A model generated the notes under the pieces. The model had not been told where the DNA came from. It did no database searches and saw only the letters and a program-made list of their open reading frames with translations. The position numbers and the translations under genes were made by a program. A stretch of DNA of 64,000 nt from Candidatus Woesearchaeota archaeon (lineage in GTDB: Archaea; Nanobdellota; Nanobdellia; Woesearchaeales; UBA10216): assembly GCA_016180195.1 (NCBI GenBank), contig JACPBS010000004.1:17485-81484 (forward strand). Direction: 5' to 3'. Positions 1,265 through 63,594 of the stretch are shown in pieces (the stretch's first letter is position 1; the number at the start of each line of letters is the position of its first letter).

Positions 1265-2995
1265 ATGAAGAACTCCGAGGTTGCAAAGATTCTTTACGAT
1301 ATTGCCGATCTTCTTGAGCTTCAGGCAGTGCCTTTCAAGCCCATGGCTTACAGGAAGGCTGCTAGGAGCATTGATGAGCATCCTGAAGATATTGATCAGG
1401 TTTATGCAAGTTCAGGTATTAAGGGCCTGATGGGTATCCCGGGGATAGGAAAGGGTATAGCTGTGAAGATTGAGGACTTGTTGAAGACCGGGAGAATGAG
1501 GTATTATGATGACCTCAGGTCAAGGTTTCCACCGCATATTTCTTCTTTGATTGAGGTTCCTGGGCTTGGGCCAAGGAAGGTTAATGTGCTTCATGAAAAG
1601 CTGAGGATAAGCAGCATAGAAGACCTGGAAATGGCTGCAAATGAACACAGGATTTCCGCAATAAAAGGATTTGGGAGGAAGTCTGAGGAGGATATTTTGA
1701 AGGGGATTGCATTGTTCAGGGCTGGCCAGAAGAGGATGCTTCTGTTTTATGCATTTCCTGTTGCTTCTGAAATTGAAAAGCGAATTGGCTCCCTTGATTT
1801 CGTGAAGAAGGCTGTTGTTGCTGGTTCGTTCAGGAGAAAAAACGAGACCATAGGCGATCTAGACATACTTGCAGTCTCATCCTATCCTGACAAGGTTGTC
1901 TCTTATTTCATTAATATGCCTGAAGTTGACCGGGTTCTTTCCAAGGGAAGCACCAAGAGCAGCATCTTGCTCAGGAACGGGCTTCAGGTTGATCTGAGGA
2001 TTGTTGGAGAGGGAAGCTTTGGATCTGCCCTGCAGTATTTCACAGGTGACATAAGGCACAACGTAAGGCTTCGCGAAATCGCTTCCAGGAAAGGATTAAA
2101 GCTCAATGAGTATGGGCTGTTTGACAAAAAAAACAGGTTTTGTGCAGGCAGATCTGAAAAGGAGGTTTACAATTATCTGGGCTTGGAGTACATTGAGCCT
2201 GAACTTAGGAATGACCGCGGTGAAGTTGAGGCATCTTTGAAAGGAAGGCTTCCGAAACTCCTGCAATATGGGTCGATAAGGGGGGATCTTCATGTGCATA
2301 CCAAGATGAGCGATGGCACGGCAGGCATCAGGGAAATGGCTGATGCTGCCCGTGATTTGGGTTATGAATATATTGCCATCACAGACCATTCGGTTTCGGA
2401 GAGGATAGCTTCAGGTTTGCCCGAGGAACGGATGAGCACTTGGCTTTCAGAGATAAGGAGGTTTGCAAGGTCTTATGAGGGGCTGAAGATACTTGCAGGG
2501 TCTGAGGTGAGCATAAGGGCTGACGGAAGCTTGGATTACATTGATAGTTTGCTTAAAAAGATGGATTTCGTTGTTGCGTCTATCCACTCTAGGTTTAAAA
2601 GCGGCAGGAAAGAGATGACCGCACGCATTATTTCTGCATTGGAAAATGAGCATGTTGATGTTCTTGCGCATCCTACGGGTAGGCTGATTTACAGGAGGGA
2701 CCCCTTGGACTTCGATCTTAAGGCAGTCTTCAGGTCAGCAGTGGATAATGGTGTATGCCTGGAAATCAATTCTCAGGCTGACAGGATGGACCTTAAGGAT
2801 GTTCATGTCAAGGAGGCAAAGGATATGGGAGCTCGGTTTGTAATTAGCACTGACTCTCACAGCGTTCATGAACTGAAGAACATGTGGATTGGCGTCTCAA
2901 TCGGCAGGAGGGGATGGCTTTCTGCGGATGATGTTATAAATACAAGAAAATTCAGGGATTTTGTCAGGATTCTAGGGAAGGGCAGGCTTCCCTGA
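1265..2995 (+). CDS. polX: DNA polymerase X family with C-terminal PHP phosphoesterase domain
   Basis: 576 aa. N-terminal helix-hairpin-helix motifs (GIPGIGKGIA, VPGLGPRKV), pol-beta-like nucleotidyltransferase core (GSFRR...GDLDIL) and PHP motif HVHTKMSDG...ITDHS. Confidence 0.85.
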   Translation: MKNSEVAKILYDIADLLELQAVPFKPMAYRKAARSIDEHPEDIDQVYASSGIKGLMGIPGIGKGIAVKIEDLLKTGRMRYYDDLRSRFPPHISSLIEVPGLGPRKVNVLHEKLRISSIEDLEMAANEHRISAIKGFGRKSEEDILKGIALFRAGQKRMLLFYAFPVASEIEKRIGSLDFVKKAVVAGSFRRKNETIGDLDILAVSSYPDKVVSYFINMPEVDRVLSKGSTKSSILLRNGLQVDLRIVGEGSFGSALQYFTGDIRHNVRLREIASRKGLKLNEYGLFDKKNRFCAGRSEKEVYNYLGLEYIEPELRNDRGEVEASLKGRLPKLLQYGSIRGDLHVHTKMSDGTAGIREMADAARDLGYEYIAITDHSVSERIASGLPEERMSTWLSEIRRFARSYEGLKILAGSEVSIRADGSLDYIDSLLKKMDFVVASIHSRFKSGRKEMTARIISALENEHVDVLAHPTGRLIYRRDPLDFDLKAVFRSAVDNGVCLEINSQADRMDLKDVHVKEAKDMGARFVISTDSHSVHELKNMWIGVSIGRRGWLSADDVINTRKFRDFVRILGKGRLP

Positions 2996-3482
2996 AATCA
3001 GGGCAGCAGTCTCCGTATGTTTGGCACCTGTTGTCGCAATAGCAGTTATCTTCTGATTTTGCACCGCAGTACCCGGAACAGCTCTTTGTCTTTATGGTCT
3101 CCACTACCTTCACCTTTACCACGCAAATGTTCTTTTCGCATTCAGAGGTCATCGGGCATTCTTCGCTGGTCTGGCACCTTATTGGCTCCAGCCCGGGGGA
3201 TGAGCCCGCTACGGCTCCTGTTATTTCGTTCTCAAGCCAGTTTCCTTCGGGCTCAGACATGTCAATTGCACAGTAGCCCTGAATGCAGCTTCCCTGCACG
3301 CAATCGGATTGCGTTTTGCAATTAAGCTCGGAATTAAAAAATGCGCCAGTTAAAGTGTCATTCCTTAAGTCGATGAAAGCAAGCCCGGCTGCGGACAGGA
3401 AGGTTATGCCCAGTATCCACAGAAAGGGGTTGTTTATGTCCACCTTTTGTTTTTTTTGCGCACCTTTTTTCATGAGTTTCAA
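2964..3482 (-). CDS. Membrane-anchored cysteine-rich extracellular protein with C-terminal somatomedin-B-like domain
   Basis: 172 aa. N-terminal TM helix (FLWILGITFLSAAGLAFI), two Cys-rich modules, and C-terminal CSGYCGAKSEDNCYCDNRCQTYGDCCPDFREAC, which matches the SMB pattern C-x-C-x3-C-x5-CC-x-D-F-x3-C. Overlaps polX 3' end convergently by 32 nt. Confidence 0.55.
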   Translation of the reverse strand: MKLMKKGAQKKQKVDINNPFLWILGITFLSAAGLAFIDLRNDTLTGAFFNSELNCKTQSDCVQGSCIQGYCAIDMSEPEGNWLENEITGAVAGSSPGLEPIRCQTSEECPMTSECEKNICVVKVKVVETIKTKSCSGYCGAKSEDNCYCDNRCQTYGDCCPDFREACPSLES

Positions 3483-3486
3483 TTGG

Positions 3487-4125
3487 TTAAGGTTGTTTAT
3501 TAATCTTTTGTAATTCCTGCTTTGTTCTTGTTGAGAGCCTGTGAGCCCGGTAAATTTGTTCAGGCATCTTATGGGGAGGCCTGAGGCTTTTCTTCACCAT
3601 TTCTATGCTCGCCTGGATGCTTACCCTGTGCCCTGGGCTGATATATACTGGCTTGCTGTATTCCCTTGTCCTTAATTCAAAGCCCCTGATCTCGTTGTTG
3701 AAGGTCACTTTTCCGTCAGGCTCAATCTCGCCGCAAAGCAGTGTTTTTGCCACGCCTATTGTTGGTATGTCAAGCATTATTCCGATGTGTGAAGCCAGGC
3801 CTATCCTTAGCGGATGGAGTATTCCATGCCCTTCAACTATCATCAGGTCAGGCTTGTTTTTCAGCTTGCTGTACGAGTCCTTTATCGCACTACCTTCGCG
3901 AAAAAACCTGTACCCCGGAATATAGGGGAAACTTGAATCCGTAACTGATACCTGCTCTTCTACCTTATTCATATCGCTGTCAAGCAGGACTATTGCTGAT
4001 ATTACTTTTTTCCCTATGAATGCCTGCTGAACACCGCCGATCAAATCAGCTTTTTTGAAATCATCCCTGGTTAGCACTCTTGTGGCCATTTCAATCTGTT
4101 CCCGGTTGTATTTCTGAAGGTTCAT
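3487..4125 (-). CDS. nfi: Endonuclease V
   Basis: 212 aa. Has the conserved PYIPGYRFFREG motif (YIPG..FRE) and HPLRIGLASHIG. Confidence 0.8.
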   Translation of the reverse strand: MNLQKYNREQIEMATRVLTRDDFKKADLIGGVQQAFIGKKVISAIVLLDSDMNKVEEQVSVTDSSFPYIPGYRFFREGSAIKDSYSKLKNKPDLMIVEGHGILHPLRIGLASHIGIMLDIPTIGVAKTLLCGEIEPDGKVTFNNEIRGFELRTREYSKPVYISPGHRVSIQASIEMVKKSLRPPHKMPEQIYRAHRLSTRTKQELQKINKQP

Positions 4126-4135
4126 TTTGAAAGCA

Positions 4136-4235
4136 TGGGCCCACCCGGAGTTTCGTGTGTATCAGTTTACCACAAGTTCGAACCGGGGACCCTCACCCTG
4201 TGAAGGTGATGTCATTGCCGCTAGACCATGGGCCC
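4136..4235 (-). tRNA. tRNA-Val(CAC) with a ~27-nt insertion (putative non-canonical intron) in the T-loop
   Basis: Reverse complement reads GGGCCCA-TG-GTCT-AGCGGCAA-TGAC-A-TCACC-TTCACAG-GGTGA-GGGTC-CCCGG-TTCGAAC-[27 nt]-CCGGG-TGGGCCC-A. It has a perfect 7-bp acceptor stem, a 5-bp anticodon stem and a 5-bp T stem. The anticodon loop is TTCACAG, giving anticodon CAC. The 27 extra nt lie between T-loop and 3' T-stem. Confidence 0.65.
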
Positions 4236-4316
4236 AATAAAAGAGCAGACAAGAAAAAGGCATATAAGAATTTTTTGGCAGAAATAATTAAATATTTCAC
4301 CGTTTCCTGTTTTATC

Positions 4317-4700
4317 ATGCCTTATTCGAGCATTCTTGTATGTATTAGCAACCCGCGGCATGGTGAGGAGATGGCCAGGCTCGCCCTCTCTGTTTCAGCC
4401 AGGGAAAGAAAAATCGTGTTCCTTCGTGTTTGCGGGCACATAGATGATGCTGTTGTCAGGGAATTCGACAGGGACCTGGCTTTTATGGATGGCGGGCCTG
4501 TGAGGTTTGAGAAGCGGATCGTTGAGTCCGACGATCCTGCGAGGACTATACTTGATGTCGCTGCAAGGGAGAATTCAGACCTTATCATTATCGGCTCAGC
4601 AGCCCATAAGGGGGTGATAAACAGGGTTGCGGGCAGCATTTCCTTCAAGTTGATGAAGGGTTCTAATGCTGCGGTGGTTGTGGTTAGGTCAAGAATCTAG
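4317..4700 (+). CDS. Universal stress protein (UspA family)
   Basis: ORF track starts at 4155 but that overlaps the tRNA. The internal ATG at 4317 gives MPYSSILVCISNP..., a typical Usp N-terminus, and a C-terminal ATP-binding motif IIIGSAAHKG...GS. Confidence 0.65.
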   Translation: MPYSSILVCISNPRHGEEMARLALSVSARERKIVFLRVCGHIDDAVVREFDRDLAFMDGGPVRFEKRIVESDDPARTILDVAARENSDLIIIGSAAHKGVINRVAGSISFKLMKGSNAAVVVVRSRI

Positions 4701-5842
4701 CGGCTGAACAATATGGCCTTCAATGTTTCCTTCCCAAGCAGAACTGTGCGTTCTTCATCTGTTTTGAACCCGTATTTTTCTGCGCTTTTCTTAAGCAGAT
4801 CCGTGTTCCGGGCCAGAAGCCCTATTTTTCCGTTCTTTGAGATTATGTATTGAGCTTGGTAGAACAACTCGTTGTTTAGCTTTTCAACGAATTTCTCTCC
4901 GATTCTTTTTGATGACTCTGGCGGGTTCGTTATTAACCTGTCTATTTCCCCTTCTGAAAATTTTGTATCGAGCCATTCAATATCGAGCCTGCTGAATGAG
5001 ATGCTCTTGTTTACACCGGCCAGCTTCGCATTTTTTTGCGCCGCGGTTATGCTGGGCATTGAAGAGTCAATGCCGATGATCCTTCGTTTCTGGGACTCGT
5101 TTTCCTGTGAGTCTATTTTTTCATAAAAAGTTTCCCAGTCCTCGTTATCAAGCGGCTTTAGGTGCTTGAATGCCAGGGCCTCCTTCCGGTAGAAGTTTAC
5201 TGGCTTTCCAGTCTGGTATAATGCTGCCTCTATTGGTATGATTCCTGATTTTGTGAACGGATCTATCAGGGAATTTGTTTTTTTGGTGCCTGAGAACCTG
5301 AGCATGCAATATGCCATAGTTCCTTTTAGGGCTGCAGGGTGTGCGAATATCCTGTAGTCCCTTTTGCTCAGGTCTATTCCGCTGAAGTCAATTCCGATAT
5401 AGCCTTTTTGGTTAAGTATATGTATGAAGAAAATGAGGTCCGGGCTTTCAAAGTTTACGTCCTTGTTTGTCTTCTCTTTTATCAGCCTGCTGGTTTCCGC
5501 GGAAAGGTCCTGGCTGTTGAAGGAATGCTCTCCTGTCCTTATGCAGGATACCTTGAAGGATGTCCCGTCTGAAATCCATTGCGAAAGGTCCGTTTCAGAA
5601 AGGATGCCTTTTATCGAAGAGACAGCAGAGCTCAGCTCATTGTTAACCGAAAATTGGCCTAGCAGGTGAAGCGACTTGATGGCTGACTGGGACTTGTACG
5701 TGAAAGCGCAGAGGTCTGTGAATTTCCTGTACTCGAATATGGAGACTGATTCATCTGTCGCCGGGCTTGATCCTATCATTTCCTCGACTTCTCTTGAAAG
5801 GATGTCTTCAAATCCCCTGTGCGTTATTGATATTCCTTTCAT
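4697..5842 (-). CDS. THUMP-domain RNA (guanine-N2/adenine-N6 type) methyltransferase, likely tRNA m2G methyltransferase
   Basis: 381 aa. N-terminal THUMP-like region, methylase core with motif I (GIDSSMPSI) and catalytic NPP motif (LITNPPESS). Confidence 0.6.
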
Positions 5843-8283
5843 GCCGGGTGGTTGTTCCCCTCGTTCGGGACTATTGCTGCCGCCACCACCTTGTCATTTT
5901 GATCGAGCTTCATTATCCTCACGCCCTGTGTGTTTCGGCCTATCTCGGAGATGTCTTTTGCAGTTATCCTTATGCCTATTCCCTTCTTGCTGATTATCAT
6001 AAGGTCGTCAGATTCGGATACAGATTTTATGACCGCAACCTTTCCATTTCGTTCATTTGTCTGTATGTTGATGACGCCAAGGCCGCCCCTGTTTATGAGC
6101 CTGTACTCGTCAACCTTTGTCCTTTTGCCATATCCATTCTCGGTTATGGTCAGCAGGCTTTTCTCAGCGACTACCATTCCGATTACTTCATCGCCCGATT
6201 TCAGCCTTATTCCCCTCACACCCTGTGATGATCTTCCTGTCTCCCTTACATCGGACTCGTTGAACCTTGCCGCAAGGCCGTTCTTTGTGGCTATTATTAC
6301 TTCCCTGTTCATCTCTGTAAGCTCTACGCCAACAAGCTTGTCGTTTTCATCGAGCGTGATTGATATTATCCCTCCTTTTCTTGGCTTCGAGTATTCTGAA
6401 AGGCTTGTTTTCTTGATAACCCCGTTTTTGGTTGACATTAGAAGCCCGTATTTTCCATCAAACTCCTTTACCGGGATGTATGCTGTTATCTTCTCGTCCT
6501 CAAGGTCCAGCAGGTTGACAATGGCCTTGCCCATTGCAAGCCTTGATGCCTCAGGTATCTTGTAAACCTTCAGCCAGTGGGCTATGCCCTTGTCTGTGAA
6601 GAAGAGTATGTAGCTGTGGGTATTTGCGTAGAATATGCTTTCTACGAAGTCCTGCTCGCCTATTTCCGCGGCTATGATTCCTTTCCCGCCCCTTTTTTGC
6701 TGCCTGTATGCGTCAAGTGACAGCCTTTTAATGTATCCATTGTGGGTTATTGTTACTACAGCATCCTGGGATGGGATAAGGTCCTCAATCTCAAAATCCT
6801 CGACGCCTTCACCTATCTCTGTCCGTCTTGGATCCGAATATTTCTGCTTGAGCTCTGTTGTTTCGTTTTCTATTATCTCGAGTATTCTTTTATCATCTGA
6901 AAGTATCTCCTTCAGGTGGTTTATGAGTTTTGTAAGCTCTTCGAATTCGAGCTTGACTTTTTCCTGCTCAAGCGAAGCGAGTCTTTGGAGCTTTATTTCA
7001 AGTATTGCACTTGCCTGCTTATCAGAAATGCTGTATTGGGAGATGAGCCCTGTCTTCGCAGCAGCTGCATCCCTTGATTTTCTTATCAGGATGATGACAT
7101 TTTCGATGTTCTTTAGCGCGATAATTATTCCTTGAAGTATATGTGCCTTCTCCTCTGCTTTTTTCAATTCGAAGGATGTTCTTCTCCTTACAACATGTTG
7201 CCTGTGCCTTATGAAGCTCTGGATAACTTCCTTCAGGTCAAGGGTCCTGGGCTCATTGTTCTGGAGCGCGATCATCATTATTCCGAATGTTGTCTCCAGC
7301 TTTGTGTGCGTGAACAGCTGGTTCATTACAACTTCCTGGTTTGCATCCTTTTTCAGCTCTATGACTATCCTCAGGCCTTCCTTGTCGCTTTCATCCCTGA
7401 GATCAGATATTCCCTGGATTTTTTTCTCCCGTATCAGGTCTGCCATTTCCTCGATGAGCTGCGATTTGTTGACCTGGAAAGGTATCTCGTTGACTATCAT
7501 TCTTTGCCGATCCTTGTTTTTTTCAACAGATATCTTTGCCCTTATTGTTATTAGGCCCCTGCCTGTCTTGTAAGCCTGCCTGATTCCTGCATTTCCGCAT
7601 ATTATGCCTCCGGTGGGGAAGTCAGGCCCTTTAATGTGATGCATCAGCTCATCCATGCATATCTCCGGGTTTTTGATAGTTGCAATTACGGCATCGGCAA
7701 CCTCCTTGAAATTGTGGGGAGGGATGTTCGTTGCCATTCCCACCGCGATCCCTGAGCTTCCGTTTATCAGCAGGTTAGGTATCTTGGAGGGGAGCACAAG
7801 AGGTTCTTCCAGGCTTGCATCGAAATTCGGGACAAAATCAACTGTCTCTTTTTCAATATCTATTAGTAGCTCCTCCGCTATCCTGGAAAGCCTTGCTTCA
7901 GTATACCTTATTGCGGCTGCTGAGTCGCCGTCTATGCTTCCCCAGTTACCTTGCCCGTCTATGAGGGGGTACCTTAATGAGAAATCCTGTGCCATTCGCA
8001 CCATTGTATCGTACACTGCTGATTCTGAGTGAGGATGGTACTTCCCAAGGCAGTCACCTATTATCCTTGCGCTTTTCCTGTACTGCTTGTTGTGCAACAG
8101 GCCGAGGTCATGGTACATTGCATAAAGCACGCGCCTTTGGACAGGTTTCAGGCCGTCCCTTAAATCTGGAAGTGCTCTTGCAACAAGGACAGACATCGCA
8201 TAGTCCAGGTATGATGTCTTCATTTCCTGGGAGATCTCCCTGTTCAGTATGCTGACCGCTGCTTTAGTAGTTTCAGAATTCAT
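5839..8283 (-). CDS. gyrA: DNA gyrase subunit A
   Basis: 814 aa. Has the [29 protein letters not shown] signature and C-terminal beta-pinwheel repeats. No gyrB adjacent in window. Confidence 0.9.
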
Positions 8284-16572: not shown

Positions 16573-17745
16573 ATCAAGCTTTGGAAAAAGGAAGGGCCTG
16601 ATATCAACAGGGAGATTGAGAAGTTCTGTGTTGGGAACGAGCACTTAATAGATCAAAAGCTGGTGAAATATGACTGCATTGCCAGCATTGCTCACGCAAG
16701 GATGCTTAACAAGATGGGGGTTTTGAGCAGCACCGAGCTAAGGCAGCTTATTTTTGCATTGGAGGAGATCATCAGTCTGGATAATGAAGGGAAATTTTCC
16801 ATAGCTATTGAGCAGGAGGACTGCCACACGGCAATTGAGAATTATCTTACTGGAAAGCTGGGGGATGCTGGAAAGAAGATCCATGCGTGCAGGTCAAGGA
16901 ATGATCAGGTTATTGCAGCATTAAGGCTTTATGAGAAGGAAGAGTTGAGAGAGGTTGGGAAACTTGTACGGAATTTAATTTCGGCAATTACGAACTTTAG
17001 CAGCCGAAACTCAGGGATTCCACTCCCAGGCTACACTCATTTGAGGAAGGCGATGCCTTATTCTATTGGAAGGTGGGCTGAGTCATTCTCAGAGTCTTTG
17101 CAGGATGATATCTTGCTGCTGGATTCTGTTTCAATGCTGATCGATCAGAATCCCTTAGGCAGTGCTGCTGGCTTCGGGGTTCCAATTTTTAAAGTTGACA
17201 GGGAATTCACTGCAAGGCAGCTTAAGTTTGGCAGGGTTCAAAAGAACACTCTGTACGTTCAGAATAGCAGGGGAAAGTTTGAGCTTGCAATTTTGGATGC
17301 CCTCAATCAAGTAATGCTGGATATTAACAAGCTTGCCACAGATATGTGGCTCTTTACTTCTGCAGAATTTGGGTTTATTGAGCTTCCCAAGGAATTCTCA
17401 ATGGGCAGTTCGATAATGCCCCAGAAAGTAAATCCCGACGTGGTTGAGCTTCTGAGGGCAAAGGCAGGCGTGATGAAAGGGCATAGGGACAGCATCAATA
17501 GCATGATCCTGAACCTTCCTTCAGGATATAACGGCGATTTCAAGCTCACAAAGCAGCCTTTGATTGAGGGGTTTGAGCTGGCAAAGTCCTGCATCAGCAT
17601 AATGACTTTGGTGATCGGGGGCTTGAAGGTGAACGAGGGAAGATGCAAGGCCGCAATGACGCCTGAATTGTTTGCAACTGAAAAGGCTCTGGAGCTTGTT
17701 AAGAAGGGAGTTCCTTTTAGGGATGCTTACAGGAAAATGGGTTAG
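16573..17745 (+). CDS. argH: Argininosuccinate lyase; conserved N-terminus lacks a canonical start codon
   Basis: ORF track begins at GTG 16663, but the in-frame upstream translation IKLWKKEGPDINREIEKFCVGNEHLIDQKLVKYDCIASIAHARML matches the ArgH N-terminus (MKLWGGRF...SIAHA.ML). Signature HACRSRNDQVIAALRL is present. An in-frame TGA sits at 16564, and the only codon at the Met position is ATC (16573). Confidence 0.8.
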   Translation: MKLWKKEGPDINREIEKFCVGNEHLIDQKLVKYDCIASIAHARMLNKMGVLSSTELRQLIFALEEIISLDNEGKFSIAIEQEDCHTAIENYLTGKLGDAGKKIHACRSRNDQVIAALRLYEKEELREVGKLVRNLISAITNFSSRNSGIPLPGYTHLRKAMPYSIGRWAESFSESLQDDILLLDSVSMLIDQNPLGSAAGFGVPIFKVDREFTARQLKFGRVQKNTLYVQNSRGKFELAILDALNQVMLDINKLATDMWLFTSAEFGFIELPKEFSMGSSIMPQKVNPDVVELLRAKAGVMKGHRDSINSMILNLPSGYNGDFKLTKQPLIEGFELAKSCISIMTLVIGGLKVNEGRCKAAMTPELFATEKALELVKKGVPFRDAYRKMG

Positions 17746-40240: not shown

Positions 40241-40405
40241 AAATCTTGCTATGTGTCAAGAACCCGGGCTAAAGCCCAGGGCGTGTTCTTGAGCACACAA
40301 ATCAAGCTTTGCTTGATTGTGCCCATTTGAGCTATGCTCAGATTGGGTCTCAGAAATTGCTCGTCCTTACTGCGCACTAAAGTGCCACAGATTGCGTCGA
40401 GAGCA
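40241..40405 (+). repeat. Hairpin-rich intergenic repeat, family A copy 2
   Basis: Near-identical to 17841-18057 but with a single copy of the 58-bp unit. Lies in the purF upstream region. Confidence 0.85.
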
Positions 40406-40479
40406 CAAATAAACGCTTGGCGTTTATTGTGCAATAAACCGAAGCATTTTCCGCGTTGTATTAGGGGTGTTTTTGATTT

Positions 40480-41890
40480 GTGTGGTATTTTTGCGGTAAT
40501 TGGTAGCAGTCAGGCAGCCGCAGAGCTGTATATTGGCTTGACTCATCTTCAGCATAGGGGTCAGGATGCTGCAGGGATTGCTGCTTCTGACCGCTCAGGC
40601 GGTCTTAGGATTTTCAAGGGCAAGGGGCTTGCCCTGGATATTTTCAGCGAGGAAACAATACGCGATCTGGGCGGGTTTATGGGCATTGCCCATAATCGTT
40701 ACCCGACTGCTGGAGTTGGTGACTCTACCGAATACCAGCCTTTTTCTGATGGCGAGGTTTCAATTGCTTTTAATGGAAATATCATTAATTATCCGAGCTT
40801 GAAATCTGCAATTGAGCAGCAGGGCAGGAAATTCTGTTCTAGCTCTGATGGCGAGCTTCTGCTTTGTATTTTTGCGGACGCTTACAGGAAGGGCGGGTTT
40901 TTCCATGCTGTAAGGGAAGTCCAGGAGAAACTTGTTGGAGGGTATTCTGTTGTGGGTGTTGTTGAGGGGAAGGGGATTTTTGCCTTCAAGGACCCTAATG
41001 GGATAAGGCCATTGATAATGGGTAGACGGGGTGGCCCTGATGTAGGTTATGCTTTCGCTTCTGAAAGCATTGCTTTGTCAGTTGATGGTTATAATAGTTT
41101 GCGCGATTTGAGGAACGGCGAAGCTGTTTTTGTTGGAAGCGATTTGAAGATTGAATCTAAGGTTATTATTGGCAGGGATCATGCCCCTTGCATCTTTGAG
41201 TACGTATATTTTTCCTCTGTTGAGTCTGTTCTCAACGGAATGCCTGTTTATAGTGTGAGGAGAGGGCTTGGAAAGGCTTTGGCTAATAAGGTTAAGGAGC
41301 TTTGGCCTGATATGGGGATTGATGTTGTCATACCTGTTCCTGATACTAGCAGGCCTGCCGCTGTTTCGCTTGCGCAGTCTCTTGGGGTTCCTTATGAGGA
41401 GGGTTTGGTGAAGAACAGGTATATTGGCCGTACTTTTATCATGCCATCGCAGAAGATTAGGGAAAGCGCCCTGAAGGTTAAGCTTAAGCCTATCGAGTCA
41501 GTAATAAGGGGAAAGAACGTGATGGTTGTTGATGATTCCATTGTGAGGGGAACCACTTCAAGAAGGATCGTCAGGCTTCTGAGGGATTTCGGGGCGAGGA
41601 AGGTTTTCCTCCTGAGCACTTTTCCTCCAATAAGGCATCCTTGTGTTTACGGGATTGATTTTACCAATGAGAATGAGCTTATTGCTCATGGAAAAACAAT
41701 TGATGATGTTGAGAGGGAGATTGGTGCTGATAGGCTTGTGTATATGGATCCTGATGCTTTGGGAAGGATCGTTGGAATAAATGGCATCTGCATGGCTTGT
41801 CTTAACGGCATTTATCCCACTTCCATGGATCATGCAAGGGAGATGCAGGAGCAGAGGCTGAAGGATAAGGGGAGGATGGTGGAAGGATGA
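40480..41890 (+). CDS. purF: Amidophosphoribosyltransferase
   Basis: The longest ORF starts at 40334 but runs through the repeat. The TTG at 40480 gives M-CGIFAVIG with the catalytic N-terminal Cys of class II glutamine amidotransferases. PRTase motif VMVVDDSIVRGTT. C-terminal Cys ligands of a 4Fe-4S-type PurF (CMACLNGIYP). Confidence 0.85.
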
Positions 41891-44462: not shown

Positions 44463-45145
44463 CAAGGAAGGATCCTTTGAAGGTGGCCGCATTTGTCTCA
44501 GGTTCCGGGACAAACCTTAGGCGAATTATTGAGCTTCAGGAAAGCCTTGGTGGTCAAAGCCCTTTTGTGGTTGCTTTGGTGTTTACAGATACGAAGGACA
44601 TTGGAAGATGTAATGCGAAGGCAATCGCAGCCGAATACAACATTCCTTTTATAGAAAAGGATATTAAGGATTATTATGGAAAGCGTGGATATCCTGATAC
44701 AAAAAACATGGTGATACGTGAGGATTATGACAGGGAAACTGCATCTGTATTGAGAGTGCATGGCATTGATCTCATCGCGATGTGTGGCTATTTGAGCATA
44801 GTGACTAGCCACATTTATTCAGGCTTCGTTACCCTGAATATACATCCTGGTGACTTGACTAGGACTGATCAAAATGGGAAAAGAATATATGCTGGCTGTA
44901 TTGGCGTTAACTGCATCAGGAAGGCCATTGAGAATGGCGAAAGAGAGGTGAGGTCCACTGTCCATTTTGTTAATGGGGAGTTGGATGGAGGGGCTGTAAT
45001 TGCTCTTTCAGATCCTGTTTTGGTTTCAGGGGGCGACAGTGCATCCCTGTTGGAAGAACTGAAAAGGAAGGAATGGATTATTTATCCTGAAGTGATCAGG
45101 AGGTTGGCTGGTGGAGTGTTGAGGAAAAATGGCATTGGGGTCTGA
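44459..45145 (+). CDS. purN: Folate-dependent phosphoribosylglycinamide formyltransferase
   Basis: 228 aa. Has VAAFVSGSGTNL, NIHPGDL and catalytic His/Asp context. Confidence 0.8.
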   Translation: MTRKDPLKVAAFVSGSGTNLRRIIELQESLGGQSPFVVALVFTDTKDIGRCNAKAIAAEYNIPFIEKDIKDYYGKRGYPDTKNMVIREDYDRETASVLRVHGIDLIAMCGYLSIVTSHIYSGFVTLNIHPGDLTRTDQNGKRIYAGCIGVNCIRKAIENGEREVRSTVHFVNGELDGGAVIALSDPVLVSGGDSASLLEELKRKEWIIYPEVIRRLAGGVLRKNGIGV

Positions 45146-45704
45146 ATTCAAGAAAATAAAGAAGGATGGCTTGAGGCCTTATTTCCTTGATGTTAGGAAC
45201 AGGCTTGGGAAAGGGTTTGTTCATTCCAGGAGCTTGCAGGTCCAGAAGAGGTTTTCAGGCCTTGTGGAGTATAGCGAGGCAGATACCATAATGTTCTATT
45301 GTTCTACTGGTAATGAGGTTGAAACAAGGAAGGCTATTGGTGATGCGCTCAAGCTGAAAAAACGGGTTGTTCTCCCTGTTTGCGATATTTACATGAGGAT
45401 GATGAAGCCTGTCCAGTTTGGCAGGCTGAAAAAAGGGCCTCTCGGAATCCCTGAGCCTTCTGGCAAGGAGATTAACATCGATGAGATTGACATAGTGGTT
45501 GTTCCTGTTGTTTCCTTTGATGAGGAATGTGACCGTCTGGGGAGGGGTCTTGGCTATTATGATAATTTCCTGAGGGGGTTAAAGGCGGTTAAGGTCGGTT
45601 TTGCTTTCGATTGCCTTAAGACGGATAATGTTCCGAGGGAGGATCATGATATTCAGCTTGACAAGATAGTTACAGAATCCAGGGTTATTGTTGCAAAAAA
45701 ATGA
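45129..45704 (+). CDS. 5-formyltetrahydrofolate cyclo-ligase (MTHFS)
   Basis: 191 aa. 5-FTHF cyclo-ligase family blocks (VVLPV...GRLKKGPLGIPEP...VVVPVVSFDEECDRLGRGLGYYD). Confidence 0.7.
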   Translation: MALGSEFKKIKKDGLRPYFLDVRNRLGKGFVHSRSLQVQKRFSGLVEYSEADTIMFYCSTGNEVETRKAIGDALKLKKRVVLPVCDIYMRMMKPVQFGRLKKGPLGIPEPSGKEINIDEIDIVVVPVVSFDEECDRLGRGLGYYDNFLRGLKAVKVGFAFDCLKTDNVPREDHDIQLDKIVTESRVIVAKK

Positions 45705-59504: not shown

Positions 59505-60157
59505 AAGCCGTTATTTTTGACCTTGACGGGGTATTGATTGATTCGCTTGATCTTCATTATGTTTCATGGAAAAAAATGCTTGCAGATGATGGAATTTCAA
59601 TCACAAAGTCCGATTTTTCGCATGTGTTCGGGATGACGGGCAATGATATCCTGAGGGGATTTTATTCAAAGGCCAAAAAGAATCTTGATGAAAGCGCTTT
59701 GAAGGAAAAAATTGACAAAAAGAATGCCTTTTTCCGGGAGTTTGCTGCTAGCATGCTCAAGCCTTCAATAGGCTCTGTTCAGTTGCTGGAAGGTCTGAAA
59801 ACAGCTGGAGTGAAGGCAGCAATTGGGACTTCAGCACCGGGAAAGAATGTCGAGTTCTACCTTGAAAAAACAGGTCTTGGGAAATATTTCAGCGGATATG
59901 TTTGCGCTGACCACATAAAGAAGGGGAAGCCTGACCCGGAAGTTTTCCTCAAAGCTGCGCAGGTGTTGAATGAAAAGCCTGAGGATTGTGTGGTTGTTGA
60001 GGATGCCCTGCACGGGATTGAGGCTGCAAAGCGTGGTGGTATGAAGGCTGTTGCCGTTGCTTCAACAAATGAAAAATCCGCATTGGCAGGGTCGGATCTT
60101 GTCGTAGATAATTTGGCCGAGCTTGGTGTTGAAAAGCTCAGGAGACTGTGGAAATGA
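59498..60157 (+). CDS. HAD-superfamily hydrolase (beta-phosphoglucomutase-like subfamily IA)
   Basis: 219 aa. Motif I AVIFDLDGVLIDS, motif II T, motifs III/IV K...EDALHG. Confidence 0.75.
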   Translation: MLKAVIFDLDGVLIDSLDLHYVSWKKMLADDGISITKSDFSHVFGMTGNDILRGFYSKAKKNLDESALKEKIDKKNAFFREFAASMLKPSIGSVQLLEGLKTAGVKAAIGTSAPGKNVEFYLEKTGLGKYFSGYVCADHIKKGKPDPEVFLKAAQVLNEKPEDCVVVEDALHGIEAAKRGGMKAVAVASTNEKSALAGSDLVVDNLAELGVEKLRRLWK

Positions 60158-61122
60158 TTTCAGAACATTTACTGAAGCAGCAGCTTGGCTTCACTCTTGA
60201 GAGGACTGACTTGAAGATCGGACAGAGGATAGAAGGCAAGGTGAGGGATTGCTACATATCCAAAGGAAAAAGGATCATAGTATGCACAGATAGGCTTTCC
60301 GCATTCGATGTTGTTCTTTGCACTCTCCCGTTCAAGGGACAGGTTCTTAACCAGCTTTCTGCTTTCTGGTTCGGAAAAACAAAGTCGATAATCCCCAATC
60401 ATGTTATCGATGTGCCTGACCCGAATGTTACTGTTGCAAGGGACTGCACGCCTATACCTGTAGAATTTATTGTCAGGGGCTACATAACAGGGGTTACAAA
60501 GACCTCTTTATGGTATAACTACAGCAACGGTTCCCGTGAATACTGCGGGCACAGGCTTCCTGATGGGCTGAGGAAAGACCAGAAATTGAATGTGCCGATA
60601 GTTACCCCTACGACCAAGGCTGAAAAGGGCCTTCATGATGAGCTTGTTTCAAGGGACTCAATCATAAAGAGGGGTATTTTGGATGGTGACGAGTTTGACA
60701 CAATTGCCGAGATAAGCTTGAAGCTGTTTGAGCTTGGCAGCAGGCTGGCTGCAAGGAATGGGATCATCCTTGTTGATACCAAGTATGAGTTCGGCAGGGA
60801 CCATGAGGGTGAGATCACGTTGATTGATGAAATCCATACGCCTGACAGCTCAAGATTCTGGTTCAGGGAAACTTACCAGGAGATTTTCAAAAAAGGGGAA
60901 GAGCAGATGAAAATCGACAAGGAGTATGTGAGGAAATGGCTTGCTGAATCAGGTTTTACCGGTGATGGAGCACCTCCGAATATACCTGACGATGTCAAGG
61001 TCGAGGGAGCAAGAAGGTATATCGAGGCATTTGAATGCATTACAGGGGAAAGTTTCGAGTCAAAGGCGGGTAATGTAAGCAGCCGCATCGCCAGGAACCT
61101 GGAAAAAGGAGGCTATTTGTGA
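60148..61122 (+). CDS. purC: SAICAR synthetase (long form)
   Basis: 324 aa. Conserved SAICAR synthase blocks (DRLSAFD, LVDTKYEFG). Confidence 0.85.
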   Translation: MEMISEHLLKQQLGFTLERTDLKIGQRIEGKVRDCYISKGKRIIVCTDRLSAFDVVLCTLPFKGQVLNQLSAFWFGKTKSIIPNHVIDVPDPNVTVARDCTPIPVEFIVRGYITGVTKTSLWYNYSNGSREYCGHRLPDGLRKDQKLNVPIVTPTTKAEKGLHDELVSRDSIIKRGILDGDEFDTIAEISLKLFELGSRLAARNGIILVDTKYEFGRDHEGEITLIDEIHTPDSSRFWFRETYQEIFKKGEEQMKIDKEYVRKWLAESGFTGDGAPPNIPDDVKVEGARRYIEAFECITGESFESKAGNVSSRIARNLEKGGYL

Positions 61123-62577: not shown

Positions 62578-63594
62578 TTGAACATGGGGAGCCGGGGTTT
62601 TAAGATAGCCACCATAGGCAGCCATTCTGCCCTTCAGATTCTAAGGGGGGCAAAGGACGAGGGTTTTGGAACTATTGCTGTTTGTGAGAAGGAAAGGGAT
62701 GAGCCTTACAGGCATTTCGGGGTTGCTGACAGGATAATTCTTCTGGATTCCTTCAAGAAATTCATGGAGATCGAGAATGATCTTATTTCTGAAAATTCAA
62801 TAGTGATACCCCACGGGACATTCCTAGATGCGGTCACTACCGAAAAAATCGAGCTCCTTAAGGTGCCTTATTTCGGCAACAAGAAGATTCTGAAGTGGGA
62901 GGTTGACAGGGCCATGCAGAGGGAGTGGCTCAGGAAAGCAGGCCTTACATTGCCCAGGATTTTCAGGGGCCCTGATGATATTGATGTCCCGGCTATAATC
63001 AAGTTTTATGGCGCTAAAGGCGGTAAAGGCTTTTTCCTGGCAAAGAGCCGCGATGAATTCGACAGGAAGATTGAGGAGCACAAGGGTAAGGCCTACATAA
63101 TCCAGGAGTATATTGTTGGAGCCCCCATATACATACATTACTTTTATTCGCCGTTGAGTGGAGAGATTGAGCTGATGAGCTTTGACAAAAGGTATGAGAG
63201 CAACGTGGATTCTATTGGCAGGATTGCTGCCAAGGACCAGCTGGATATGGGTCTCGACACTTCTTATAACATCACAGGAAATGTTCCTCTTGTTGTCCGG
63301 GAATCGCTTCTGCCGAAGATTTTCGAGATGGGCCGTGCTGTTATTGAGGCTTCAAAGAAGATCGAGAAGAGAGGCATTTTCGGCCCTTTCAGCCTTGAGA
63401 CTGTTATTACCCCTGACCTGAAATTTTATGTTTTCGAGATTTCAGCGAGGATAGTTGCAGGCACCAACCACTACATATCCGGAAGCCCTTACACTGCTTT
63501 GAAATACAAGGAACCTATGAGCACAGGCAGGAGGATTTCCAGGGAGATAAGAAACGCAATAGCATCAGATCAGCTCTGTAAGGTGCTGGGATAG
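62578..63594 (+). CDS. purP: 5-formaminoimidazole-4-carboxamide ribonucleotide synthetase (archaeal PurP, ATP-grasp)
   Basis: 338 aa. N-terminus KIATIGSHSALQIL and the ATP-grasp layout typical of PurP. Confidence 0.75.
   Translation: MNMGSRGFKIATIGSHSALQILRGAKDEGFGTIAVCEKERDEPYRHFGVADRIILLDSFKKFMEIENDLISENSIVIPHGTFLDAVTTEKIELLKVPYFGNKKILKWEVDRAMQREWLRKAGLTLPRIFRGPDDIDVPAIIKFYGAKGGKGFFLAKSRDEFDRKIEEHKGKAYIIQEYIVGAPIYIHYFYSPLSGEIELMSFDKRYESNVDSIGRIAAKDQLDMGLDTSYNITGNVPLVVRESLLPKIFEMGRAVIEASKKIEKRGIFGPFSLETVITPDLKFYVFEISARIVAGTNHYISGSPYTALKYKEPMSTGRRISREIRNAIASDQLCKVLG

What the first reader, a model, noticed from the sequence alone, without database searches (positions are those of the whole stretch)
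4136..4235. tRNA-Val(CAC) carrying a 27-nt insertion in the T-loop (non-canonical intron position)
All stems are perfect (7-bp acceptor, 5-bp anticodon, 5-bp T stem) and the anticodon loop TTCACAG is canonical. However, 27 nt (TTGTGGTAAACTGATACACACGAAACT) separate the T-loop (TTCGAAC) from the 3' half of the T stem, which is position 59-61 rather than the canonical 37/38. Such non-canonical bulge-helix-bulge introns occur in only some archaeal lineages. This one would be missed by bacterial-mode tRNA scans. The longest ORF of the neighbouring usp gene runs through this tRNA and should be trimmed to start at 4317.
Basis: seen in the sequence. Interest (0 to 1): 0.55.

Follow-up and report, generated by a model that had tools for sequence, protein, structure and literature searches.

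The report
Valine tRNA gene with T-loop intron
This is a genuine valine tRNA gene of a Woesearchaeota archaeon, interrupted in its T-loop by a 27-base intron of a known archaeal kind; standard tRNA finders miss it, but the biology is ordinary for this group.

Summary
Window 4136-4235 (minus strand) is a 100-nt pre-tRNA-Val(CAC). ARAGORN and Rfam find no tRNA in the intact window. Once 27 nt are removed, ARAGORN calls a 73-nt tRNA-Val(cac).

The junctions can fold into a bulge-helix-bulge motif: T stem, 3' bulge ACU, 4-bp helix UUCG:CGAA, 5' bulge AACU, inner helix UGUG:CACA. This fold lies 0.2 kcal/mol from the minimum-energy fold.

The host is a Candidatus Woesearchaeota MAG. Syntenic orthologues carry an insert at the same site, 11, 65 or 89 nt long, with unrelated sequence apart from the 3' end (CGAA plus 3 nt) and nearly identical exons. 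A scan of species-representative genomes found 27 further archaeal loci with T-loop inserts at this site, nearly all tRNA-Val. All keep U60 and the helix partner CGAA-like tetramer.

Introns at 59/60 are already documented, for example in ARMAN-2 tRNA-Cys, which was cleaved in vitro, and in Thermoproteales. Disrupted tRNA genes are known in DPANN archaea. This is therefore a new member of a known kind. Splicing itself was not shown and no EndA was found in the part of the window scanned. The suggested usp start at 4317 is supported.

The parts
4136..4235 (-). pre-tRNA-Val(CAC) gene, 100 nt (73-nt mature body plus 27-nt intron; no encoded CCA)
   Evidence: Sequence read. ARAGORN calls tRNA-Val(cac) after in-silico removal of the insert. 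Orthologues aligned.
4177..4235 (-). exon 1, tRNA positions 1-59 (acceptor 5' strand, D arm, anticodon arm, variable loop, T stem 5' strand, T-loop 54-59 UUCGAA)
   Evidence: Invariant in four syntenic orthologues except for a few loop, wobble or G.U changes.
4200..4202 (-). anticodon CAC (positions 34-36)
   Evidence: The plus strand reads GTG at 4200-4202.
4150..4176 (-). 27-nt intron CUUGUGGUAAACUGAUACACACGAAAC, inserted at position 59/60
   Evidence: BHB geometry. Unique in the window. Orthologues carry an insert at the same site of 11, 65 or 89 nt with different sequence.
4136..4149 (-). exon 2, tRNA positions 60-73 (U60, T stem 3' strand CCGGG, acceptor 3' strand UGGGCCC, discriminator A73)
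   Evidence: U60 is conserved in 32/32 archaeal copies.
4179..4182 (-). BHB central helix, 5' strand (U54 U55 C56 G57)
   Evidence: Pairs with CGAA at 4152-4155.
4152..4155 (-). BHB central helix, 3' strand (intron CGAA)
   Evidence: Four of four pairs. A CGAA, UGAA, CGAG, AGAA or AGGA tetramer sits at this place in all 32 archaeal copies, although the search pattern did not constrain it. The two bacterial chance hits have 0-1 pairs.
4175..4178 (-). 5' bulge A58 A59 | C U, with the predicted 5' cleavage after A59
   Evidence: Constrained and suboptimal folds. The cleavage site follows from the BHB rule (2 nt 3' of the central helix) and is an inference.
4149..4151 (-). 3' bulge A C | U60, with the predicted 3' cleavage before U60
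   Evidence: In homologues the bulge is AGU, AAU, ACU, UGU or AUU, and always ends in U.
4171..4174 (-). inner (intron-intron) helix, 5' strand UGUG
   Evidence: Pairs with CACA at 4156-4159.
4156..4159 (-). inner helix, 3' strand CACA
4262..4267 (-). TATA-like box (TTATAT), about 27-32 nt upstream of tRNA position 1; putative archaeal promoter
   Evidence: Read. An A/T-rich ATATATA box lies at a comparable distance upstream in L033, L034 and L037. Its function is inferred.
4317..4700 (+). usp (universal stress protein) CDS with corrected start, 127 aa. Longer ORF calls (GTG 4155, or GTG 4200 in the Logan gene call) run antisense through the tRNA.
   Evidence: Pfam Usp match. Orthologues of 131 and 133 aa begin MYSR/MLMYSR, aligned to M55 of the long ORF. 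The Logan call is 166 aa.
3487..4125 (-). nfi (endonuclease V) CDS, starting 10 nt downstream of the tRNA 3' end on the same strand; probably co-transcribed
   Evidence: Pfam Endonuclease_5, E = 3.4e-52. The same tight tRNA-nfi junction occurs in L033 and L006.

Best explanation
Window 4136-4235 (minus strand) is the functional tRNA-Val(CAC) gene of a Candidatus Woesearchaeota (DPANN) archaeon. It is interrupted between nucleotides 59 and 60 of the T-loop by a 27-nt protein-spliced (bulge-helix-bulge) intron.

Proposed pathway:
- The gene is transcribed from a TATA-box promoter about 30 nt upstream, probably together with the nfi gene that starts 10 nt downstream.
- In the precursor, T-loop bases U54-G57 pair with the intron's CGAA. 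This creates a 4-bp helix flanked by a 5' bulge (AA|CU) and a 3' bulge (AC|U), stacked between the T stem and a short intron hairpin.
- The archaeal splicing endonuclease EndA cuts 2 nt 3' of the central helix on each strand, and an RtcB-type ligase joins the exons.
- The product is a 73-nt tRNA with a canonical T-loop UUCGAAU. CCA is added afterwards.

Shown here: gene anatomy, the potential to form the BHB motif, the archaeal host, and conservation of the intron site across relatives. Inferred: cleavage, ligation, and the enzymes involved.
For: 1. Removing the 27 nt turns a sequence that ARAGORN and Rfam do not recognise into a tRNA-Val(cac) with perfect acceptor, anticodon and T stems and A73.

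2. The BHB conformer is the second-best fold of the T arm, -12.5 against -12.7 kcal/mol.

3. The host is archaeal: GyrA is 100% identical to an NCBI Ca. Woesearchaeota protein, and the named hits among the 120 best-scoring are mostly Woesearchaeota or Nanoarchaeota.

4. Syntenic orthologues keep the gene order gyrA-THUMP-usp-tRNAVal-nfi-polX (in full in the window, L033 and L034, in part in L037; L006 and L016 keep tRNA-Val, nfi and polX). They have 71/73-identical exons and an insert at exactly the same site: 11 nt (L037/L009, L006), 30 nt (L016), 65 nt (L034) and 89 nt (L033). The insert sequences differ apart from the 3' CGAA plus 3 nt. In L037, L033 and L034, as in L022 and L023 from the genome scan, the unconstrained MFE of the T arm is the BHB or BHL fold.

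5. A pattern scan of 185,579 species genomes returned 29 loci. 27 are archaeal: 16 labelled Woesearchaeota, 3 Nanoarchaeota or Nanoarchaeia, 1 'archaeon' and 7 'uncultured Methanosarcinales'; two of the last group are syntenic with the window. They carry T-loop inserts of 11-38 nt.

6. In all 32 archaeal copies the base before CCGGG is U, and the 4 nt before the 3-nt bulge can pair with 54-57 (3-4 of 4 pairs), although the pattern left these positions free. L010 shows a two-sided change, UUCA:UGAA against UUCG:CGAA. The two bacterial chance hits show 0-1 pairs.

7. Introns at 59/60 are an established class (PMC4090602). An ARMAN-2 pre-tRNA-Cys with a 13-nt 59/60 intron is cleaved in vitro by its EndA (PMC3239211). 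DPANN lineages are reported to combine EndA variants carrying an extra loop with many disrupted tRNA genes (PMC5829648).
Against: - No RNA data are available, so splicing has not been observed.
- No EndA or RtcB was found among the 30 window ORFs scanned with Pfam. The other roughly 34 ORFs and the rest of the genome were not examined.
- The BHB conformer is not the MFE of the window's own precursor: a competing UUGUG:CACGA hairpin is 0.2 kcal/mol better locally and 3 kcal/mol better for the whole precursor.
- The 5' bulge is 4 nt rather than 3 (or 3 nt plus a 1-nt bulge in the inner helix), so the motif is slightly relaxed.
- Whether the genome also holds an uninterrupted tRNA-Val(CAC) copy is unknown.
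- The homologue set was ascertained with a pattern that fixes the T stem and acceptor stem, so those stems carry no covariation evidence.
Confidence: 0.9

Rival explanations
1. The intron is real but the splice register is different: 60/61 as the reader drew it (mature T-loop UUCGAAC), or another nearby register.
For: ARAGORN accepts a tRNA-Val for every 27-nt deletion register tested, from 3 to 9 nt into the T-loop. The cloverleaf alone therefore does not fix the junction. The 5' bulge is 4 nt, so the geometry is not textbook.
Against: The BHB rule (cut 2 nt 3' of the central helix on both strands) gives 59/60. In 32/32 archaeal homologues the base immediately 5' of CCGGG is U, whereas the base after UUCGAA varies (A16, T9, G4, C3), as expected if U60 is exonic and the base after A59 is intronic. 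The orthologues L034 and L022 form 3-4-3 motifs in the same register.
Confidence: 0.05
2. The gene is a pseudogene: a tRNA-Val gene inactivated by a 27-nt insertion, with its function supplied by another copy.
For: Generic tRNA finders reject it. Only 64 kb of the genome is visible, so a second copy cannot be excluded.
Against: The exons are under strong purifying selection, 71/73 identical to L037 although GyrA is only 68% identical. The interruption lies at the same nucleotide in syntenic orthologues and in 27 species-level genomes, and splice-motif features are conserved. A TATA-like promoter box is conserved. Random inactivating insertions would not recur at one site and preserve a BHB.
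Confidence: 0.03
3. The insert is not removed: the mature tRNA carries an enlarged T-loop or an extra arm.
For: No splicing data exist. The insert can form a small hairpin.
Against: Insert length ranges from 11 to 89 nt among orthologues, with no sequence conserved except the part that builds the splice motif. The T-loop 54-60 must interact with the D-loop and is restored exactly (UUCGAAU) only by excision. No tRNA with such a T-loop expansion is known (established knowledge).
Confidence: 0.01
4. The insert is a scar of mobile-element or virus integration into the tRNA gene (an att-site remnant), or part of a split or permuted tRNA arrangement.
For: Integration at tRNA genes is a proposed source of tRNA gene disruption in archaea (discussed in PMC3239211).
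Against: There is no duplicated tRNA 3' segment and no integrase nearby. The neighbours are usp, nfi, a THUMP methyltransferase and gyrA. The insert is only 27 nt and unique in the window. The two halves are contiguous and colinear, so the gene is neither split nor permuted.
Confidence: 0.01

Closest known systems
ARMAN-2 (Ca. Micrarchaeum acidiphilum) pre-tRNA-Cys(GCA), with a 13-nt intron at 59/60 (Fujishima et al. 2011, PMC3239211)
   Same: The host is a DPANN archaeon and the insertion site is the same, 59/60 in the T-loop. Recognition depends on a BHB-type motif. The 11-13-nt versions in the window's relatives (L037, L006, L030, L007) form the same relaxed bulge-helix-loop type.
   Different: The tRNA is a different isotype (Val, not Cys). 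The window's intron is 27 nt and forms a near-strict hBHBh' (4-4-3) rather than hBH. Cleavage of the ARMAN-2 substrate by its epsilon2 EndA was shown in vitro, whereas nothing has been shown experimentally here and the EndA type of this organism is unknown.
Non-canonical tRNA introns of Crenarchaeota and Thermoproteales (Marck & Grosjean 2003; Sugahara et al. 2008; reviewed in PMC4090602, which lists 59/60 among the sites)
   Same: These are short protein-spliced introns at sites other than 37/38, with BHB or relaxed motifs, often several per gene. Relatives of the window carry up to three in tRNA-Val: D loop, 37/38 and 59/60.
   Different: They occur in a different superphylum (TACK, with an (alpha-beta)2 EndA carrying the Crenarchaea-specific loop). 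There, related introns are spread over many isotypes by apparent transposition. Here, nearly every locus returned by the pattern scan (which fixed the tRNA-Val T stem and acceptor) is a tRNA-Val gene, covering all three isoacceptors.
Canonical archaeal 37/38 intron in the anticodon loop
   Same: The geometry is identical. Both the T arm and the anticodon arm are 5-bp stems with 7-nt loops, and 59/60 in the T arm is the structural equivalent of 37/38: the cut falls after the sixth loop base, and the first four loop bases form the central helix with the 3' end of the intron.
   Different: It sits in a different arm of the tRNA, so generic finders (ARAGORN -i, the Rfam tRNA model) do not model it.
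T-arm introns of nucleomorph and red-alga tRNA genes (Guillardia theta, Cyanidioschyzon merolae; cited in PMC4090602, PMC3728597)
   Same: These are ectopic introns in the T arm that are removed by a protein endonuclease.
   Different: The hosts are eukaryotic, the introns are often 3-24 nt, and the recognition rules are partly unknown.

Membership tests
Archaeal protein-spliced (EndA/BHB) tRNA intron | Joining the exons restores a canonical cloverleaf tRNA | tested here: met
   ARAGORN calls a tRNA-Val(cac) after removal of the 27 nt (its call spans 75 nt because it adds one flanking pair from the padding; the mature body read by hand is 73 nt). Read by hand, it has a 7-bp acceptor stem, 5-bp anticodon and T stems, G53-C61, T-loop UUCGAAU and A73.
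Archaeal protein-spliced (EndA/BHB) tRNA intron | The exon-intron junctions lie in two bulges (canonically 3 nt each) on opposite strands, separated by a 4-bp helix (hBHBh' or a relaxed variant) | tested here: met
   The motif runs T stem, 3' bulge ACU, UUCG:CGAA, 5' bulge AACU, UGUG:CACA. Its energy is -12.5 kcal/mol against an MFE of -12.7. It is met in slightly relaxed form (4-4-3). Orthologues give 3-4-3 (L034, L022) or bulge-helix-loop (L037) as their MFE.
Archaeal protein-spliced (EndA/BHB) tRNA intron | The host is an archaeon (or eukaryote) that encodes the splicing endonuclease EndA and an RtcB-type ligase | tested here: inconclusive
   The archaeal host is confirmed: GyrA is 100% identical to a Ca. 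Woesearchaeota protein. No EndA or RtcB domain was found in the 30 window ORFs scanned; the remaining ORFs and the rest of the genome are not available. The literature reports EndA in DPANN, and that analysis included a Woesearchaeota genome (PMC5829648).
Archaeal protein-spliced (EndA/BHB) tRNA intron | The intron is excised and the exons are ligated in vivo or in vitro | not testable with these tools
   No RNA-seq or biochemical data are available.
Archaeal protein-spliced (EndA/BHB) tRNA intron | The splice motif is conserved while the intron interior varies among homologues | tested here: met
   Across 32 archaeal copies, introns are 11-89 nt, U60 is invariant, the 3' bulge is NNU, and the tetramer that pairs with 54-57 is conserved. 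The interiors cannot be aligned.
59/60 class of non-canonical introns | Splice junction between tRNA positions 59 and 60 | tested here: met
   The junction is assigned from the BHB geometry and from U60 conservation against a variable first intron base. The actual cleavage site is inferred, not observed.
Group I self-splicing tRNA intron (bacterial or Patescibacteria type) | A ribozyme core of about 200 nt or more (P1-P9), usually inserted in the anticodon loop | tested here: not met
   The insert is 27 nt and lies in the T-loop. Rfam finds no intron family in the window.
Split or permuted tRNA gene | The 5' and 3' parts are encoded at separate loci or in reversed order | tested here: not met
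   Both exons are contiguous and colinear within 100 nt.

The most novel reading that the evidence does not exclude
The 59/60 intron of tRNA-Val may be an old trait found across the Woesearchaeota/Nanoarchaeota lineage (Nanobdellota). It occurs in all three Val isoacceptors, often together with D-loop and 37/38 introns. On this reading it has been kept at one site while its sequence turns over. That would imply either a function, such as delaying T-loop modification or folding, or a barrier against integrating elements, or an inability to lose it.

It would also explain tRNA genes reported as missing in these genomes. One example is tRNA-Val, reported absent by tRNAscan-SE in 15 of 54 complete Pacearchaeales genomes (preprint 10.64898/2026.05.13.725050), where split tRNAs were suggested instead.
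Probability: 0.35. Interest if true: 0.45.

Novelty: new member of a known kind. Interest (0 to 1): 0.3.

Why it matters
The main value is practical.

- **Annotation blind spot.** ARAGORN and the Rfam tRNA model cannot see this gene or its homologues. ARAGORN missed 31 of 32 unspliced archaeal copies, and Rfam at gathering score found none of the interrupted tRNA-Val genes in 13 loci searched. Woesearchaeota and Nanoarchaeota genomes annotated with generic tools will therefore appear to lack tRNA-Val, and gene callers place spurious ORF extensions over it, as happened with the usp call here.
- **Missing tRNAs in DPANN.** The finding gives a concrete, checkable explanation for tRNAs reported as missing in DPANN genomes.
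- **A natural series of substrates.** The 11-, 27-, 65- and 89-nt introns at one site offer a ready-made set for testing the substrate range of DPANN splicing endonucleases.

It does not change the current understanding of tRNA splicing.

Tried and rejected
- **ARAGORN with the intron option on the whole window.** It found nothing, because it models only anticodon-loop introns.
- **Rfam at gathering score and in E-value mode.** This gave only a 14.5-bit partial tRNA hit. The other weak hits (SNORD12, CRISPR-DR10, sno_ncR3, ST7-AS1) have E-values of 0.4-8.5, lie inside coding sequence, and were dismissed as chance.
- **A search for other T-loop motifs (GGTTCRAA) in the window.** There were 7 hits against 5.7 expected, and only the one at 4177-4184 belongs to a tRNA.
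- **A search for a second copy of the intron in the window** (intron mobility). None was found with up to 3 mismatches.
- **A Pfam search for EndA or RtcB in 30 window ORFs.** None was found, so the enzyme question stays open.
- **ARAGORN -i on relatives with two or three introns, after T-loop splicing.** It gave unreliable isotype calls (Ser, Ala, Gly and others). Reading the sequences by hand shows Val anticodons (TAC, GAC, CAC), so those ARAGORN labels were discarded.
- **A C/D-box guide RNA inside the intron.** The intron contains only a CUGA tetramer and no C box, and 27 nt is too short; rejected.
- **The metagenome-wide scan** was not used, because the genome scan and the syntenic loci already gave enough homologues.

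Full report
**1. The observation**

Read on the minus strand, window 4235->4136 is:

GGGCCCA-UG-GUCU-AGCGGCAA-UGAC-A-UCACC-UUCACAG-GGUGA-GGGUC-CCCGG-UUCGAA-[CUUGUGGUAAACUGAUACACACGAAAC]-U-CCGGG-UGGGCCC-A.

- The acceptor, anticodon and T stems are perfect.
- The D stem has three Watson-Crick pairs plus U13.U22, so 'all stems perfect' is slightly overstated.
- The anticodon is CAC (plus-strand GTG at 4200-4202) and the discriminator is A73. No CCA is encoded.

ARAGORN finds no tRNA anywhere in the 64-kb window, nor with its intron option. Rfam finds nothing at gathering score. In permissive mode it reports only a 14.5-bit partial tRNA match at 4171-4228(-), which stops in the T-loop. After the 27 nt are deleted in silico, ARAGORN calls tRNA-Val(cac).

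**2. Where exactly the intron sits**

The cloverleaf alone does not fix the junction: every deletion register from 3 to 9 nt into the loop still gives a tRNA-Val. The splice motif does fix it.

- T-loop bases U54-G57 (UUCG) pair perfectly with the intron's CGAA.
- Three bases (A, C, U) follow CGAA before the T-stem 3' strand.
- On the other strand, AACU follows G57.
- An inner helix UGUG:CACA closes an 11-nt loop.

This is a bulge-helix-bulge motif with a 4-nt 5' bulge, a 4-bp helix and a 3-nt 3' bulge (4-4-3). For the isolated T arm it is the second-best structure, -12.5 kcal/mol against -12.7 for a competing UUGUG:CACGA hairpin. For the whole precursor, the cloverleaf-plus-BHB fold is -37.0 kcal/mol against an MFE of -40.0.

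EndA cuts 2 nt 3' of the central helix on each strand (established knowledge of the BHB motif). Applied here, that puts the cuts after A59 and before U60. The intron is then window 4150-4176, exon 1 is 4177-4235, exon 2 is 4136-4149, and the mature T-loop is UUCGAAU.

Comparative data agree with 59/60. In all 32 archaeal homologous copies the base just before CCGGG is U, while the base after UUCGAA is A, T, G or C.

The T arm and the anticodon arm are both 5-bp stems with 7-nt loops. Position 59/60 is therefore the exact structural counterpart of the canonical 37/38 site.

**3. Whose gene it is**

- The window's GyrA (5839-8283, minus strand) is 100% identical to an NCBI protein named 'DNA gyrase subunit A [Candidatus Woesearchaeota archaeon]', on a 170-kb contig. 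The named hits among the 120 best-scoring relatives are mostly Woesearchaeota or Nanoarchaeota.
- The same locus occurs in three Logan assemblies, SRR12113422, SRR12113385 and SRR12113431. The interrupted tRNA gene is present in all three.

**4. Relatives**

*Syntenic orthologues.* Contigs encoding GyrA at 83%, 83% and 68% identity (L033, L034, L037) keep the order gyrA - THUMP methyltransferase - (usp) - tRNA-Val(CAC) - (nfi) - polX. Each has a tRNA-Val(CAC) gene at the corresponding place, interrupted after UUCGAA.

| Locus | Intron length |
|---|---|
| L033 | 89 nt |
| L034 | 65 nt |
| window | 27 nt |
| L037 | 11 nt |

- The exons are almost invariant. Window and L037 are 71/73 identical, differing in the D loop and the variable loop.
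- The intron interiors cannot be aligned. Only the 3' end, CGAA plus 3 nt, is shared.
- In L037, L033, L034, L022 and L023 the unconstrained MFE of the T arm is itself the BHB fold, or for the 11-nt intron the bulge-helix-loop fold. L022 is a textbook 3-4-3.

*Genome-wide scan.* One scan of 185,579 species-representative genomes used CCCGGTTCRAA-N(12-42)-CCGGGTGGGCCC and returned 29 loci.

- Two are bacterial chance matches with no tRNA 5' half and 0-1 central-helix pairs.
- The other 27 are archaeal: 16 labelled Woesearchaeota, 3 Nanoarchaeota or Nanoarchaeia, 1 'archaeon' and 7 'uncultured Methanosarcinales'.
- Two of the last group, L006 and L016, are syntenic with the window (tRNA-Val, nfi, polX), so that label looks unreliable.
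- Nearly all are tRNA-Val genes (CAC, TAC and GAC anticodons) with T-loop inserts of 11-38 nt.

*Independent support from unconstrained positions.* The pattern left the intron free. The conserved features below are therefore independent evidence:

- The tetramer that pairs with 54-57 is CGAA in 18 copies, AGAA in 5, UGAA in 4, CGAG in 3 and AGGA in 2, giving 3-4 of 4 pairs.
- The 3-nt bulge always ends in U.
- L010 pairs UUCA with UGAA, a two-sided change relative to UUCG:CGAA.

The T and acceptor stems were fixed by the pattern and provide no covariation evidence.

*Multiple introns.* Many relatives carry a second intron at 37/38, and some a third in the D loop (L028, L031, L029, L015, L008).

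*Detectability.* Among unspliced copies, ARAGORN -i finds 1 of the 32 archaeal copies (1 of 34 sequences, counting the two bacterial chance hits). Rfam at gathering score finds none of the interrupted tRNA-Val genes in 13 loci, including the 11-nt ones, although it does find neighbouring ordinary tRNAs.

**5. Mechanism**

The best-supported explanation (confidence about 0.9) is a functional tRNA-Val(CAC) gene with an EndA-dependent intron at 59/60.

- Transcription probably starts downstream of a TATA-like box (TTATAT, 4262-4267, minus strand). Comparable A/T-rich boxes precede the orthologues.
- The nfi gene (endonuclease V, Pfam E = 3.4e-52) starts 10 nt after A73 on the same strand. This leaves no room for its own promoter, so co-transcription followed by 3' processing of the tRNA is likely. 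This step is an inference.
- The precursor forms the BHB. EndA cuts after A59 and before U60. An RtcB-type ligase joins the exons, and CCA is added.

| Status | Steps |
|---|---|
| Shown | Anatomy, BHB potential, archaeal host, site conservation with intron turnover |
| Inferred | Cleavage, ligation, the enzymes, co-transcription |
| Not found | EndA or RtcB in the 30 window ORFs scanned |

**6. Rivals**

- **Different splice register (about 0.05).** It is disfavoured by U60 conservation and the BHB rule.
- **Pseudogene (about 0.03).** It is disfavoured by exon conservation, recurrence of the interruption at one nucleotide across many species, and a conserved splice motif and promoter box.
- **Insert retained in the mature tRNA (about 0.01).** It is incompatible with the 11-89-nt length variation and with T-loop function.
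- **Integration scar, or split or permuted gene (about 0.01).** There is no repeat and no integrase, the insert is unique, and the exons are colinear.

**7. Comparison with what is known**

- 59/60 is one of the listed non-canonical intron sites in archaeal tRNAs (PMC4090602).
- ARMAN-2, also a DPANN archaeon, has a pre-tRNA-Cys with a 13-nt intron at 59/60 that its epsilon2 EndA cleaves in vitro. It also has a tRNA-Pro with two T-loop introns (PMC3239211).
- Kaneta et al. 2018 predicted tRNA sets for four further DPANN genomes, including a Woesearchaeota and a Pacearchaeota genome. They reported that DPANN EndAs with an extra 'L3' loop go with increased tRNA gene disruption, and that incomplete tRNA sets point to undetected disrupted genes (PMC5829648).
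- The BHB intron models of tRNAscan-SE 2.0 were trained on Crenarchaeota/Euryarchaeota and Thaumarchaeota introns (PMC8450103).
- A 2026 preprint on 208 complete Nanobdellota genomes reports tRNA-Val 'missing' in 15 of 54 Pacearchaeales and suggests split tRNAs (10.64898/2026.05.13.725050). The multi-intron tRNA-Val genes seen here offer an alternative explanation, which was not tested.

The membership tests for an EndA/BHB intron give these results:

| Feature | Result |
|---|---|
| Cloverleaf restoration | Met |
| BHB motif | Met (relaxed 4-4-3) |
| Motif conserved while interior varies | Met |
| Archaeal host | Met |
| EndA in the genome | Inconclusive |
| Excision | Not testable |

Group I intron and split or permuted tRNA are excluded.

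**8. The side claim about usp**

The longest ORF (GTG 4155) and the Logan gene call (166 aa, GTG 4200) both run antisense through the tRNA. The orthologous Usp proteins are 133 and 131 aa and start MLMYSRIL / MYSRVL, aligned to M55 (ATG 4317) of the long ORF, with no similarity upstream. The Pfam Usp match lies wholly downstream of M55. The trimmed start at 4317 is supported.

**9. Verdict**

The feature is real and correctly interpreted, with a one-base correction of the splice site. It is a new member of a known kind, with modest interest (0.3).

Its value is practical: generic tRNA finders have a blind spot for this lineage, and the conserved site with 11- to 89-nt introns is convenient for studying DPANN EndA specificity.

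The most novel reading not excluded is that this is an ancient intron found across the lineage, with a function, that accounts for the 'missing' tRNA-Val genes (probability about 0.35).

Noticed in passing
window 4123-4136 (minus strand); also L033 10389-10400 and L006 45-55: The nfi (endonuclease V) start codon lies only 10 nt downstream of the tRNA's discriminator base, on the same strand. The same tight junction is seen in L033 and L006. This suggests a tRNA-mRNA co-transcript, with the nfi mRNA 5' end made by tRNA 3' processing.
   Followed up: partly
L037 9985-10030: In L037 no nfi gene is called and tblastn finds none. Even so, the sequence right after the tRNA reads ATGAACCTCAAAAAATAC (MNLKKY), like the nfi N-terminus MNLQKY in the window. 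It may be a remnant of a lost nfi.
   Followed up: no
L028, L031, L029, L015, L008 (tRNA-Val genes found): Some Woesearchaeota or Nanoarchaeota tRNA-Val genes carry three inserts: in the D loop, at 37/38 and at 59/60. This level of disruption is usually associated with Thermoproteales.
   Followed up: partly
L013 and L032 (same contig, JAHFLT010000005.1): Two different tRNA-Val genes on one contig carry T-loop introns that differ by a single base (gactgaatacCcagtagaaaa against gactgaatacTcagtagaaaa). L032 reads CAC; L013 appears to read TAC and has a second intron at 37/38. The similarity suggests recent duplication, gene conversion or intron transfer. In another MAG (L010, L018) the two isoacceptors have unrelated introns.
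   Followed up: no
L007 1050-1214: A tRNA with a Val-like acceptor and T arm but an anticodon loop CUUCGGA (UCG, Arg) also has a 13-nt insert at 59/60 and an insertion in the D arm. The site may therefore not be restricted to tRNA-Val.
   Followed up: no
L006, L015, L016, L020, L022, L024, L028: Seven MAGs are titled 'uncultured Methanosarcinales archaeon' but carry the Woesearchaeota-type interrupted tRNA-Val. L006 and L016 also share the tRNA-Val, nfi, polX synteny with the window. The taxonomic labels are probably wrong.
   Followed up: partly
window about 14985-63594: The window encodes many nucleotide and amino-acid biosynthesis genes. Those confirmed by Pfam are argininosuccinate lyase (16702-17745), a PurF-like amidotransferase (40334-41890), 5-formyl-THF cyclo-ligase (45129-45704), SAICAR synthetase (60154-61122) and PurP-like DUF1246/DUF1297 (62584-63594). 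Further pur, pyr and arg-like ORFs were not scanned with Pfam. This is a richer anabolic set than is usually expected for DPANN archaea.
   Followed up: partly
GyrA homologues P0011, P0021, P0027, P0040, P0055, P0084: Several Woesearchaeota GyrA proteins are 980-1300 aa long and carry intein or homing-endonuclease domains (PF14890, PF14528). The window's GyrA (814 aa) has none.
   Followed up: no
L034 10145-10783: An extra 212-aa ORF with no Pfam hit lies between usp and the tRNA-Val gene in L034. It is absent from the window and from L033.
   Followed up: no
window 2964-3473 (minus strand): A small cysteine-rich predicted membrane or secreted protein with a C-terminal Somatomedin-B domain lies next to nfi. 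It is conserved in L033 and L034, which is an unusual domain for an archaeon.
   Followed up: no
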